Source of the DNA: a virus
IMG/VR virus record: IMGVR_UViG_3300025705_000005
Coordinates: 1 to 64,000 of that record
Direction: 5' to 3' (one strand)
DNA: 64,000 nt
A program made the position numbers and the translations under genes. Positions 17,514-20,152 of the stretch are shown here, piece after piece. The first letter of the stretch is position 1. Each line of letters starts with the position of its first letter. The notes below the pieces were generated by a model. The model was not told the DNA's origin and did not search any database. It saw nothing but the letters and a program-made list of their open reading frames with translations.

Positions 17514-17909
17514 TTACTTTTCCATTCCTCTGAATGATTTAATTTTATATTTTTTGTAAAGTGCACCTATCTCTTTATGAAATGGTAACATTTGTTGATT
17601 GTAAACTTTAGCTGATTGGTCTTTCAGTTGAACCATTTGAATTATATCGTGGTCATCAGCTTTCTTAGCAAACTTAGTTCCAACATAACCTGATGCATTC
17701 TTTCTGATTACATCTGGATTTGGAACTTCATTAATAGTACCTTCATTAACTCCTTCAGATAAATCATCAATACCCTGCTTCATATCTCCAAATAGTTTTC
17801 CAAATTGTTTTTGTTGTTTGGAATCTAATTTTTTAATATTCTTTAGATGTTTCTTTACCATAAAAGATAAGTCAACTGAAATGTCTTGTAGTATATCTGA
17901 GTAATCCAT
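17514..17909 (-). CDS. Two-module putative head-internal protein
   Basis: Likely start MDYSDILQ at 17909; central linker DLSEGVNEGTINE carries three hydrophobic-x-E sites. Confidence 0.6.
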   Translation of the reverse strand: MDYSDILQDISVDLSFMVKKHLKNIKKLDSKQQKQFGKLFGDMKQGIDDLSEGVNEGTINEVPNPDVIRKNASGYVGTKFAKKADDHDIIQMVQLKDQSAKVYNQQMLPFHKEIGALYKKYKIKSFRGMEK

Positions 17910-17914
17910 TGTGG

Positions 17915-20152
17915 TTATCCTATTTTCTTTAGTGAGTGTGTTTGTGTTGCCAACCAATATTTGTCTGGTAATCCAGCCATCTTAGATGCTTTCTTAATAG
18001 CTTCAACTGTATTTCTTGCTTTTACTTTATATACATTCTTCTTAGATAGTTTAACACCACCAAGATTCATATCAGCAAAACTCATTTCCCAAGTTGCAAA
18101 TCCACCTTCGTTGATTTCTTCTTCTTCTACTTCTTCGGATTCGTTTACTTTTTTATTACTAACTGAAGCTAACATATCTTTTGCTGATACTTTCATCTTC
18201 ATTAATTTAGATGATGGTAGTTCACCAAATCCAAATGACTCGTTTAACATAGAAGTAAGTTTCATTGATTTAGATTCGTTTGAAAATTCTTTTGCGTTTT
18301 CTTTATCATCCTTATCAACTGATTTTACAGGATACGTTTTACCATCTACAGAAAATTCACTATCACCATTTGCGATTGCTTTAGCTCTAGCGGCACCGAA
18401 TTCATTTCCTTCTTCAACCGTTTCTTCTTCATCATGCGATTCATTGATTTCGTAATACTTTCCTAACACTTCACCTATTTCATCATAAGTAGATTCTAAT
18501 CTCTGTTGTAGTGTTCCAACTTCTCTCAAAGTTTTCTCAAATATTCTAAATGATTCATTCATTCTCTTTACGTGTCTACTAACTGTAATACCATCAAATG
18601 AACCTTCAGTTTCTTTAACCATATTTTTACCAGCTGATTCTACTAACCCTCTGATTGATTCGTACACATCAGATAATCCTTCGTTTCTATATACAGTTTC
18701 ACCAAACGATTTGTATGCTTTAACTGCTTCTAAAAATGCTTGCTTTTGTTCCGTAGTCATTTCTGAAGATTCTTCTCTTCTCTCTTCATCGTTTTCTTTA
18801 ACGAATGGAGTGTGGAATGGGTTTGAATAAACTTTACCGTTTTCAAACGATTCTTTTAATATATCTTTTAGTTTCATAGTTCCCTCTTTTGTTATTTCCA
18901 TCATCTTCTTAGCCTCAGCTTCGATTTGTTTCTTAATGTTAGATGGTACTTTTTTATCGTAATATTTTATTTTTCCTTTTGAATCAATGTGAGCTACATT
19001 TTTGTAATCACCATTTTCTTCTTCGGCTTTATTGTAAACAGTCAATCCGTTTCCTTTACGAGCCATTCCAATATCGTACTTAGCTTCGTTCATTACTGAT
19101 TCGCTCATACTTAATATTGCTTTTTTCTTTTTCAACATTAGTTTAAGAAATAACTCTACCAATTTACCATTCTTATCATCAGTCATACGGTGTGGTCTAC
19201 CAACAAAATCTTGTCCGATACCATCCATCTTACCTGAACGTTGAAATTTAATCATACCTGATTGTGATTTAATTGCAAAGTCACCCATACCTAAATGTAC
19301 AAGCTCTGAATTTGGTAATACACCTTTACTATAGTTTACAAAGTTACTATCTACTATTGTTTGGTTTCCAACTCTTTCGTAGTGACCTACATCCTTACCT
19401 TCATTTACTACTGATTCATCAACTGCTGGTTTAATAAACATTAATCCAACTTTTGATTTAGGTACTTTTAATTTTTTGATTGCTAATAGTTTTGCGTTGT
19501 AAAGGTCTTTAGCTTCACCTTTTTTAATTTCAATTTTCTTACCATTGTATCCAGCAATCCATCCTGCAAACGTTGATTCGTTTACTGATTCGTTCTTTGT
19601 ATCTGAATACAAATCTTTAACCCACTCCATTGATTCTTTATTTGGCTTAACCTGCTTACCATACTTTTTGAAGAATTTTTTAATAAACTCTTCTTCAGTT
19701 GATGATGACTTAATTGTAAGGTGTATATCACTCATCACACCCTCTTTAAGTCCCTCAGGAACACAATTAGGAACATCTTTACCATTCTTCTTCTTCATAC
19801 CTACCATTTGGTAGTTCTTCCAACAGGGGTTATCATCTTCATTTACATTATCTCTCATTGCTTTTGATAAATCGCTGATGTACTTTAGTTCTTCTTTAGC
19901 ACCTTTGTGTTTAGCGTATCTATCTAAACCAAACGACATCATAATACCTAATGATAAATGTAATCTAGCTTTTGCTGCTTTTGGATACTTTCTACCATAA
20001 GGAGATGAGTTAAACCAATCAATCATAGCTTGTGCCATTTCTTTTGATAGTTTGATTCCCTCTACTCTATCAGTATTTCCTTTTACAATCTGTTTTAGTC
20101 CACCGATTGCTGAGATTTCGTTAAGTGAGTTTTTTATATCTGTTAATTTCAT
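17915..20152 (-). CDS. Multi-module putative head-internal polyprotein
   Basis: Likely start MKLTDIKNSLNE at 20152; >10 segments delimited by (I/L/V/M)-(N/K)-E; includes a CWKNYQMVGMKKKNGKDVPNCVP module; directly downstream of the prohead protease. Confidence 0.7.
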   Translation of the reverse strand: MKLTDIKNSLNEISAIGGLKQIVKGNTDRVEGIKLSKEMAQAMIDWFNSSPYGRKYPKAAKARLHLSLGIMMSFGLDRYAKHKGAKEELKYISDLSKAMRDNVNEDDNPCWKNYQMVGMKKKNGKDVPNCVPEGLKEGVMSDIHLTIKSSSTEEEFIKKFFKKYGKQVKPNKESMEWVKDLYSDTKNESVNESTFAGWIAGYNGKKIEIKKGEAKDLYNAKLLAIKKLKVPKSKVGLMFIKPAVDESVVNEGKDVGHYERVGNQTIVDSNFVNYSKGVLPNSELVHLGMGDFAIKSQSGMIKFQRSGKMDGIGQDFVGRPHRMTDDKNGKLVELFLKLMLKKKKAILSMSESVMNEAKYDIGMARKGNGLTVYNKAEEENGDYKNVAHIDSKGKIKYYDKKVPSNIKKQIEAEAKKMMEITKEGTMKLKDILKESFENGKVYSNPFHTPFVKENDEERREESSEMTTEQKQAFLEAVKAYKSFGETVYRNEGLSDVYESIRGLVESAGKNMVKETEGSFDGITVSRHVKRMNESFRIFEKTLREVGTLQQRLESTYDEIGEVLGKYYEINESHDEEETVEEGNEFGAARAKAIANGDSEFSVDGKTYPVKSVDKDDKENAKEFSNESKSMKLTSMLNESFGFGELPSSKLMKMKVSAKDMLASVSNKKVNESEEVEEEEINEGGFATWEMSFADMNLGGVKLSKKNVYKVKARNTVEAIKKASKMAGLPDKYWLATQTHSLKKIG

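What the first reader, a model, noticed from the sequence alone, without database searches (positions are those of the whole stretch)
17514..20152. Head-cargo polyproteins: strings of small modules separated by prohead-protease sites
Seen: the 745-aa protein right after the prohead protease parses into unrelated 30-110 aa modules. They end in SLNE, NVNE, GLKE, ESVNE/S, ESVVNE/G, ESVMNE/A, ILKE/S, EINE/S, VEE/G, MLNE/S, KVNE/S and EINE/G. The next gene has LSEGVNEGTINE between two modules. The same site type occurs where maturation is expected in the capsid (LVKE60/A), scaffold (LLSE/A, VVKE/G, IISE/G) and protease (QINE/S, PVNE/S). The leader MKLTDIKNSLNE recurs internally as MKLKDILKE and MKLTSMLNE. 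Established: T4 gp21 cleaves after (I/L)-x-E, and T4 internal proteins carry a ~10-aa MK...xxE capsid-targeting leader, are packaged and are injected; IPI* inhibits GmrSD. Inference: this phage encodes its injected internal proteins as polyproteins, fused from once-separate leader-bearing genes, which are cut in the prohead into many small basic effectors (anti-defence or DNA-binding).
Basis: partly seen in the sequence, partly recalled or inferred. Interest (0 to 1): 0.88.

Follow-up and report, generated by a model that had tools for sequence, protein, structure and literature searches.

The report
Protease-jointed, shuffled phage head polyprotein
An uncultured marine T4-related phage strings about ten unrelated mini-proteins into one gene beside its head protease, and each joint carries that protease's likely cutting motif; related phages swap, split and fuse the pieces at these joints, but no cutting or packaging has been measured.

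Summary
The 745-aa protein (17915-20152, minus strand) directly follows an S77 (T4 gp21-type) prohead protease. It is a chain of about ten modules joined by [ILVM]-[NK]-E followed by S/G/A.

- **Enrichment:** the motif is 4- to 13-fold above composition shuffles, but only in three variable "slot" proteins and in the capsid, scaffold and protease. The other 18,650 aa of the genome sit at expectation.
- **Comparative evidence:** about 1,400 metagenomic homologs carry the same modules in dozens of orders. DNA and protein breakpoints fall on the joints. In 277 of 280 distinct contexts a module starts 0-2 residues after a hydrophobic-x-E.
- **Fusion and fission:** modules B and J also exist as separate genes with their own MKLK..L.E leader.
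- **Context:** all 80 related loci keep terminase-portal-x-x-protease-[this gene, 190 to 1001 aa]-[second slot]-bS21-scaffold-capsid.
- **Structure:** AlphaFold's confident islands lie inside modules and confidence drops at most joints.

Interpretation is partly supported. Cleavage is a strong inference; packaging, ejection and effector roles are untested. The conserved core (H-I-J) is acidic and helical, so it may serve assembly. No module matches a known family.

I found no published description. Earlier notes from this scan describe similar polyproteins in at least eight other phage genomes. Verdict: a new variant of the T4 internal-protein theme.

The parts
20163..20792 (-). Prohead protease, S77 / T4 gp21 type, with motif sites near both ends (INE24/S, VNE178/S).
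   Evidence: Pfam PF03420 at 6e-35. PHROG 207 at 2e-53. Aligns to the T4 gp21 structure 5JBL at 5e-20; the query has His in GELDHPES and Ser in GISSRGMGS in the aligned blocks. Terminal sites are conserved in Mel-JY01 and immuto.
17915..20152 (-). 745-aa modular polyprotein (slot 1); the stop codon is at 17915-17917.
   Evidence: ORF. Motif statistics. Module shuffling.
20117..20152 (-). Leader A (aa 1-12), MKLTDIKNSLNE, ending in a motif site.
   Evidence: The same type of leader (MKLKDLLNE, MIKLKNILNE) starts every stand-alone module gene seen in related loci. It resembles the capsid N-terminus MDLKNILNE/G.
19838..20116 (-). Module B (aa 13-105), pI 9.8.
   Evidence: Occurs N-terminal, C-terminal, internal, or as a stand-alone gene in relatives. 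All 15 distinct upstream contexts end in a site.
19577..19837 (-). Modules C (aa 106-137, Cys-containing beta-hairpin motif) and D (aa 138-192).
   Evidence: Confident AlphaFold island at 110-187. The C motif recurs in cyanophage, Methylophilales-phage and Halorubrum-virus proteins. The GLKE137/G site is the one joint without a confidence drop.
19400..19576 (-). Module E (aa 193-251), pI 9.7.
   Evidence: An independent unit in architectures. DNA block 189-254 is 96.9% identical to L012 while the flanks are 87.5%.
19085..19399 (-). Module F (aa 252-356), pI 9.4, ending in the double site SMSE/SVMNE/.
   Evidence: All 10 upstream contexts carry a site. DNA block 249-358 is rearranged relative to the window in L044.
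18851..19084 (-). Module G (aa 357-434), pI 9.3. Its last 9 aa are the leader-like MKLKDILKE (18851-18877).
   Evidence: Confident AlphaFold island at 358-421. All 55 upstream contexts carry a site. Proteins of H-first architecture start at this leader.
18440..18850 (-). Module H (aa 435-571), acidic, three-helix; the conserved core of the gene family.
   Evidence: Invariant columns in alignments A1 and A2. AlphaFold helices. Stand-alone 154-aa homolog right after the protease of Microcystis phage Mel-JY01.
18239..18439 (-). Acidic spacer plus module I (aa 572-638), ending in the leader-like MKLTSMLNE (18239-18265).
   Evidence: AlphaFold small alpha/beta island at 583-625, with a confidence drop at the H/I joint. 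48 of 51 upstream contexts carry a site.
18107..18238 (-). Module J (aa 639-682), with sites VNE671/S and INE682/G.
   Evidence: Stand-alone gene with its own leader in L071 at 9567-9854. All 42 upstream contexts carry a site.
17918..18106 (-). Module K (aa 683-745), pI 10.1.
   Evidence: Confident AlphaFold island at 684-745. All 32 upstream contexts carry a site.
17514..17909 (-). Slot-2 gene (131 aa from MDYSDILQ). It has a conserved ~52-aa N-domain, then the joint LSE/GVNE/GTINE/, then a variable C-module.
   Evidence: Homologs range from 51 to 409 aa. The minimal 51-52-aa genes stop where the joint begins.
16004..17005 (-). Acidic scaffold protein. The site near its C-terminus (IISE318/G) is conserved in relatives.
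14342..15976 (-). Gp23-type major capsid protein with propeptide site LVKE60/A.
   Evidence: Pfam PF07068 at 1.4e-77. The site is conserved in Mel-JY01 and immuto.
26823..28607 (-). 594-aa third variable slot upstream of terminase, with a conserved C-terminal domain and four [ILVM]NE[SGA] joints.
   Evidence: Its module at aa 262-364 recurs (79% identity) inside a slot-2 protein of L005.

Best explanation
The gene after the prohead protease is a hypervariable cargo slot of a Far-T4-type head module.

Proposed mechanism:
1. One late translation product starts with a short T4-CTS-like leader (MKL....L.E).
2. The leader carries a conserved acidic helical core (H-I, often with J) and a changing set of small, mostly basic modules.
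3. The chain is taken into the assembling prohead.
4. The S77 protease, which also trims capsid, scaffold and itself, cuts after Glu at each hydrophobic-[N/K]-E joint. This releases roughly 4-16 kDa proteins and a few short peptides.
5. At least some of the basic pieces stay with the DNA as internal proteins and leave with it at infection.
6. Because the joints (and leaders) are the only sequence shared between cassettes, recombination and gene fusion or fission occur there. This gives each phage lineage a different set.

Shown: modular anatomy, joint motif, its restriction to head proteins, shuffling, fusion/fission, and conserved position. Inferred: cleavage (about 0.8). Speculative: retention, ejection and effector roles (about 0.5).
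For: - **Motif restriction:** the motif is enriched only in slot proteins and in canonical protease substrates; the rest of the proteome is at expectation.
- **Site conservation:** the capsid site, the site near the scaffold C-terminus and the sites near both protease ends are conserved in Mel-JY01 and immuto. An S77 protease is adjacent.
- **Fixed position:** all 80 related viral contigs keep the gene directly after the protease. Its length ranges from 190 to 1001 aa while neighbours stay constant.
- **Shuffling:** about 65 architectures occur among 117 long homologs.
- **Breakpoints on joints:** 70% of ungapped homology breakpoints lie within 8 aa of a site, against 32% at random. DNA blocks break at aa 106, 190-193, 249-254, 347-358, 425-437, 626-638 and 669-676, and adjacent blocks overlap by about 9-30 nt.
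- **Punctuation rule:** 277 of 280 distinct upstream contexts of ten module families carry hydrophobic-x-E within 0-2 aa. P1 Glu is kept while P2 and P3 vary, which points to selection on the protein rather than on the DNA.
- **Stand-alone forms:** leader-bearing stand-alone versions of B, J and H-I exist.
- **Structure:** AlphaFold's confident islands lie within modules and confidence drops at the joints.
- **Precedent:** T4 shows CTS-directed loading and gp21 processing of diverse internal proteins (PMC3012670, PMC5694885).
Against: - There is no proteomic or biochemical evidence of cutting or of virion location.
- The phage is uncultured.
- AlphaFold confidence is low overall (mean pLDDT 44 and 58), so the domain-boundary argument rests on four islands.
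- The joint at 137 shows no confidence drop.
- The 594-aa slot protein has no N-terminal leader.
- The conserved core is acidic and helical, which suits a scaffold-like assembly role rather than cargo.
- No module matches any Pfam family. PHROG hits (modules B-C only) go to families of unknown function, and ESM Atlas (module B), PDB and BFVD (H-I) searches named nothing, so nothing indicates an effector activity.
Confidence: 0.55

Rival explanations
1. The chain is cut by the protease, but none of it is cargo. It would be an expendable part of the prohead core or scaffold (the role of T4 gp22, gp67 and gp68). Its fragments would leave the head before DNA packaging, and the variable modules would only tune assembly or be neutral passengers.
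For: - H, I and J are conserved, acidic (pI 4.5-5.0) and helical.
- The gene sits between protease and scaffold in all 80 loci.
- T4 core proteins are cut at several sites so that they can be cleared (PMC5694885).
Against: - Presence/absence and order of accessory modules vary greatly between close relatives whose neighbouring genes are 87-89% identical in DNA. That is unusual for an assembly part.
- Five modules are strongly basic, like T4 internal proteins that stay with DNA (PMC3012670).
Confidence: 0.22
2. The joints are not cut. The protein would remain a beads-on-a-string multidomain protein, and the repeated motif would be a flexible linker kept because it serves as microhomology for cassette exchange.
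For: - Adjacent DNA homology blocks overlap by about 9-30 nt at the joints.
- The joints are predicted to be disordered.
- No cleavage data exist.
Against: - P1 Glu is kept in 277 of 280 contexts while P2, P3 and codons vary, so the constraint acts on the peptide.
- The same motif marks the capsid propeptide site and the scaffold and protease sites, where it is conserved in distant relatives.
- The motif is not enriched elsewhere in the genome.
- Stand-alone genes carry it right after a ~10-aa leader, as T4 CTS proteins do.
Confidence: 0.13
3. The polyprotein is a translation-economy device. Many small late proteins would be made from one start codon and cut in the cytoplasm, then act in the infected cell without entering the head.
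For: - The slot genes sit beside a phage bS21 gene.
- Stand-alone and fused forms alternate.
Against: - T4-type prohead proteases act inside the prohead after assembly (PMC5694885).
- The gene is embedded in the head module.
- The leader resembles a capsid-targeting tag and the capsid N-terminus.
Confidence: 0.05

Closest known systems
Phage T4 internal proteins IPI, IPII, IPIII and Alt, with their capsid-targeting sequence and gp21 processing
   Same: Both have a short N-terminal leader ending in hydrophobic-x-E, a T4-type S77 protease encoded nearby, and small, often basic products. In T4 the internal proteins are described as a highly diverse set sharing only the leader (PMC3012670, PMC5694885).
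   Different: In T4 each internal protein is a separate gene with one cut. Here up to about ten unrelated modules sit in one reading frame with a cut motif at every joint. The set includes a conserved acidic core and occupies fixed slots in the head module. No Pfam family, including any T4 internal-protein family, was hit.
Multiply cleaved inner-body and ejection proteins of giant phages (phiKZ, SPN3US)
   Same: These are head proteins cut at several x-x-E sites by a related prohead protease. Some fragments are kept and some are cleared (PMC5694885, PMC10052503).
   Different: In those phages the extra cuts lie mostly in long propeptides of single proteins. They do not lie between exchangeable, unrelated modules, and no cassette shuffling at the sites has been described.
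Polyvalent proteins of phages and conjugative elements (Iyer et al. 2017, PMC5512222)
   Same: Both are mosaic multi-domain proteins encoded near virion genes. They are predicted to be packaged and delivered, show many domain orders, and are sometimes processed.
   Different: Polyvalent proteins are built from recognisable enzymatic domains, and where processing is proposed it uses an embedded metallopeptidase. Here no module matches a known domain, and the punctuation matches the head-maturation protease.
Viral polyproteins cut by a virus-encoded protease (for example in positive-strand RNA viruses)
   Same: One translation product is cut at a short repeated motif into several functional proteins.
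   Different: This is a different virus realm and protease family, and the modules there are fixed essential enzymes. Here the modules are optional and shuffled. The likeness is in logic only.

Membership tests
Substrates of a T4-type (S77) prohead protease | An S77 protease with catalytic His and Ser is encoded in the same head module. | tested here: met
   PF03420 at 6e-35. Alignment to 5JBL at 5e-20; the query carries His (GELDHPES) and Ser (GISSRGMGS) in the aligned blocks. That these are the catalytic positions rests on my recollection of T4 gp21, not on a tool result.
Substrates of a T4-type (S77) prohead protease | Sites have a hydrophobic residue at P3 and Glu at P1, of the same type as the phage's capsid and scaffold maturation sites. 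| tested here: met
Substrates of a T4-type (S77) prohead protease | Cleavage at these sites is observed. | not testable with these tools
   This needs mass spectrometry or co-expression.
T4 internal proteins (IPI-III, Alt) | A roughly 10-aa N-terminal capsid-targeting leader is removed at x-x-E. | tested here: inconclusive
   A leader of the right length and ending is present, and it is shared by all stand-alone module genes. Its targeting function has not been tested, and the likeness to the T4 CTS is in form only.
T4 internal proteins (IPI-III, Alt) | Sequence or fold homology to a known internal protein. | tested here: not met
   No module hit any Pfam family, and PHROG hits (modules B-C only) go to families of unknown function. 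PDB sequence and Foldseek searches were run on H-I only and found nothing.
T4 internal proteins (IPI-III, Alt) | Present in mature heads and ejected with the DNA. | not testable with these tools
   The phage is uncultured and no virion proteome is at hand.
Polyvalent proteins (Iyer et al. 2017) | Several recognisable conflict-related enzymatic domains sit in one polypeptide. | tested here: not met
   This protein and nine long homologs (together about 9,000 aa) gave no Pfam domain.

The most novel reading that the evidence does not exclude
The three variable slots of this head module (upstream of terminase, after the protease, and before bS21) may form one cartridge system. In it, the same few codons would serve both as the head protease's cut site and as the recombination joint. 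That would let marine Far-T4-type phages draw from a shared pool of dozens to hundreds of unknown mini-proteins, load them into the capsid as one chain, and deliver them with the DNA as first-minute host-takeover or anti-defence factors.
Probability: 0.3. Interest if true: 0.85.

Novelty: new variant of a known kind. Interest (0 to 1): 0.72.

Why it matters
If the joints are cut and the pieces are packaged, this family would be a large untapped source of small proteins that phages deliver ahead of their own gene expression. The H-I core alone has more than 1,100 representatives at 50% identity.

That class includes the first known inhibitor of a modification-dependent restriction enzyme, T4 IPI* (PMC3012670).

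It would also show a simple evolutionary device: a cut site that doubles as a cassette boundary. That would explain how head cargo can change fast while the head genes around it stay fixed.

The joint rule predicts exact N-termini, so the claim can be tested directly on existing marine virus-particle proteomes.

Tried and rejected
- **Nearest sequenced phages:** a megablast of 17000-21000 against sequenced phages found nothing. A protein search found only single-module matches.
- **Function searches:** Pfam found no family for the whole protein, for each module at E up to 1, or for nine long homologs. PHROGs hit only families of unknown function.
- **Structure and feature searches:** Foldseek of the H-I model against BFVD and PDB, a PDB profile search, and an ESM Atlas search of module B gave only uncharacterised or chance hits.
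- **Counting module families:** I split proteins at the motif and clustered by single linkage. This over-merged, giving one cluster of 829 segments, so I quote no firm number. About 45 small clusters or singletons remained.
- **Mel-JY01 transferase pattern:** the 388-aa Mel-JY01 protein after bS21 shows an ADP-ribosyltransferase-like pattern by eye, but Pfam did not support it.
- I obtained context through the search for related loci instead.
- **Rejected reading:** I rejected the idea that the motif reflects composition only. Shuffles, and the rest of the proteome sitting at expectation, exclude it.
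Full report
**Setting**

The window is the first 64 kb of a single 74,485-bp contig of an uncultured phage. 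GC content is about 33% and nearly all genes lie on the minus strand.

The head module reads, in gene order:
- terminase, 24250-25839
- portal, 22305-24182
- two unknown genes of 286 and 162 aa
- an S77 prohead protease, 20163-20792 (PF03420 at 6e-35; 5e-20 to the T4 gp21 structure 5JBL)
- the 745-aa protein, 17915-20152
- a small gene, 17514-17909
- a phage ribosomal protein bS21
- an acidic scaffold protein, 16004-17005
- a Gp23-type capsid protein, 14342-15976
- PhoH

.

By capsid similarity the nearest sequenced phages are Microcystis phage Mel-JY01 (60%), Flavobacterium phage immuto (55%) and Rhodothermus phage RM378 (37%). RM378 is treated in the paper that names the 'Far-T4' phages (PMC4360716).

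The motif [ILVM]-[NK]-E occurs 14 times in the 745-aa protein against 3.5+-1.8 in composition shuffles. With S, G or A after it, it occurs 8 times against 0.22, which none of 5000 shuffles reached.

That refutation fails:

| Group | [ILVM][NK]E, observed vs expected | With S/G/A, observed vs expected |
|---|---|---|
| Three variable proteins | 24 vs 6.0 | 16 vs 1.2 |
| Protease, scaffold, capsid | 13 vs 3.4 | 7 vs 0.7 |
| Portal, terminase | 1 vs 2.8 | 0 vs 0.5 |
| Remaining 18,650 aa | 38 vs 36.5 | 4 vs 6.9 |

**The motif matches the lineage's maturation sites**

- The capsid propeptide site is conserved in three phages: QLVKE/A here, QLISE/A in Mel-JY01, QIVSE/A in immuto.
- So is a site near the scaffold C-terminus: IISE/G, ILNE/S, IISE/V.
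- So are sites near both ends of the protease.

 This is the pattern known from T4, where gp21 trims capsid, core proteins, internal proteins and probably itself (PMC5694885).

**The modules are real units**

A word-indexed search found 778 homologs of similar length and 682 shorter ones, all from marine or aquatic metagenomes. A profile of the H-I core finds 1,123 representatives at 50% identity in 1.84 billion proteins.

I split the protein at the sites into a leader A and modules B to K.
- The 117 long homologs show about 65 different architectures, for example B-x-G-H-I-J-K, H-I-F-E-G-J-B and H-I-B-E-F-G-J-J-K.
- Without using my module borders, 70% of ungapped homology breakpoints fall within 8 aa of a site, against 32% for random positions.
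- At DNA level, eight relatives are colinear with the window from terminase up to residue 106 of the polyprotein. Homology then breaks at residues 106, 190-193, 249-254, 347-358, 425-437, 626-638 and 669-676. Blocks are reordered in L044, and neighbouring blocks overlap by about 9-30 nt at the joints.
- Identity also differs by block within one pair: 96.9% for module E against 87.5% for the flanks in L012. That indicates separate histories.

The sharpest test concerns module starts. For ten module families, 277 of 280 distinct upstream contexts carry hydrophobic-x-E within 0-2 residues of the module start, whatever module precedes. P1 Glu is kept while P2, P3 and the codons vary. The constraint therefore acts on the peptide and not only on the DNA.

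**Fixed place, variable content**

All 80 related viral contigs have the same order: terminase, portal, 286-aa gene, 162-aa gene, protease, H-I-bearing gene, second slot gene, bS21, scaffold, capsid, PhoH.
- The H-I gene ranges from 190 to 1001 aa.
- The second slot gene ranges from 51 to 409 aa.
- The neighbouring genes keep their lengths.

The minimal first-slot gene is leader plus H plus I. In Mel-JY01 a 154-aa stand-alone H homolog sits right after the protease.

The second slot has a conserved N-domain of about 52 aa. It exists alone as a 51-52-aa gene that stops exactly where the joint LSE/GVNE begins in the window.

A third slot is the 594-aa gene upstream of terminase (26823-28607). 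It has a conserved C-terminal domain, variable N-terminal modules and four joints. One of its modules recurs at 79% identity in a second-slot protein of L005.

**Fusion and fission**

- Module B is a 100-aa stand-alone gene with a leader ending ILTE/ISAIGG in L050. It is fused after ESINE/ISAIGG in the second-slot gene of L071, N-terminal in the window, and C-terminal in P0046.
- Module J is a stand-alone gene starting MIKLKKLINE/SFGLG in L071.

The direction of evolution is open. Stand-alone H-I genes end in ...SMKLKDLIK and overlap by four bases the next gene, which starts MIKLKNILNE. The leader-like tail may therefore be a relic of a longer chain.

**Structure**

AlphaFold on an 81-row alignment gave low overall confidence (mean pLDDT 44).
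- There are four islands above about 60: residues 110-187 (C-D), 358-421 (G), 583-625 (I) and 684-745 (K).
- All four lie inside modules, with low confidence at the joints. The exception is residue 137, which shows no drop.

The H-I model (mean pLDDT 58) shows three helices for H, a drop at the H/I joint, and a small alpha/beta fold for I.
- The invariant RMNE/S inside H lies mid-helix, so it is probably not a joint.

Fold and sequence searches named no function for any module.

Charge is mixed:
- basic: B, E, F, G, K (pI 9.3-10.1)
- near neutral: C, D
- acidic: H, I, J (pI 4.5-5.0)

**Reading**

The most likely mechanism is that the chain is loaded into the prohead through its leader or its conserved core. 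The S77 protease then cuts it at every joint, and some of the basic pieces remain with the DNA as internal proteins.

I put cleavage at about 0.8 and the full chain of claims at about 0.55.

The main rival is that the fragments are assembly parts that are cleared from the head. The acidic helical core fits this, and both readings may hold for different modules. An uncut beads-on-a-string protein is less likely, because the constraint is on the peptide and the motif equals the capsid and scaffold sites.

**Comparison with what is known**

T4 internal proteins share only a capsid-targeting leader and are otherwise diverse (PMC3012670). Giant phages cut head proteins at several sites (PMC5694885, PMC10052503). 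Polyvalent proteins are mosaic, probably packaged multi-domain proteins (PMC5512222).

None of these describes chains of unrelated small modules punctuated by the head protease's own motif and shuffled at that motif. Five literature searches found no such report.

Earlier notes of this scan describe the same kind of polyprotein in at least eight other phage genomes. I did not test those notes, and they are not independent evidence.

I file this as a new variant of the T4 internal-protein theme, not as a member of any T4 internal-protein family. Homology was tested and not found.

**Limits**

- There are no wet-lab data.
- Only two structure predictions were available.
- The breakpoint and context counts include related sequences and are therefore not independent events.

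Noticed in passing
window 26823-28607 (-): This 594-aa ORF upstream of terminase is a third variable slot. It has a conserved C-terminal domain (aa 453-594, phrog_7595), variable N-terminal modules, four [ILVM]NE[SGA] joints and no N-terminal leader. Its module at aa 262-364 recurs at 79% identity in the slot-2 protein of L005 (3275-4249).
   Followed up: partly
window 17160-17459 (-): A phage-encoded ribosomal protein bS21 (PF01165 at 2e-12) sits between the cargo slots and the scaffold gene, where recovered, in related loci with the same order and in Mel-JY01.
   Followed up: partly
window 17909-17957 (-): The ORF caller's TTG start at 17957 for the next gene is probably wrong. Relatives start at the conserved MDYSDILQ (17909), which leaves a 5-nt gap after the polyprotein stop codon.
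   Followed up: yes
window 29231-31528 (-): This 765-aa ORF has a leader-like N-terminus (MGKLIKEWVKEILTE) and motif sites at LSE217/A, VKE360/G and ITE365/G. An earlier scan note reads it as a cleavable three-part enzyme. I did not study it here.
   Followed up: no
L001 7579-8745 (Microcystis phage Mel-JY01, 388-aa protein after bS21): By eye, its C-terminal part shows an ADP-ribosyltransferase-like pattern (YRAV..., YVSTTL, ESEIILP). That would recall T4 Alt in a head-cargo position, but Pfam gave no hit.
   Followed up: partly
window 19742-19837 (-), module C: A short Cys-containing motif (PCW..Y...G.KKKNGK.VPNCVP) recurs in hypothetical proteins of cyanophages, Methylophilales phages, a Paraglaciecola virus and Halorubrum tailed viruses. 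It appears to be a very widespread mini-domain of unknown role.
   Followed up: no
window 32449-42486 (-): A 3345-aa ORF in a 74.5-kb contig. I did not examine it.
   Followed up: no
L009 10380-11738 and L067 6616-7938: In some relatives a gene of about 440-450 aa with a DNA-methyltransferase-like motif (DPFAGGS, seen by eye) is inserted between slot 2 and bS21. It carries no leader.
   Followed up: no
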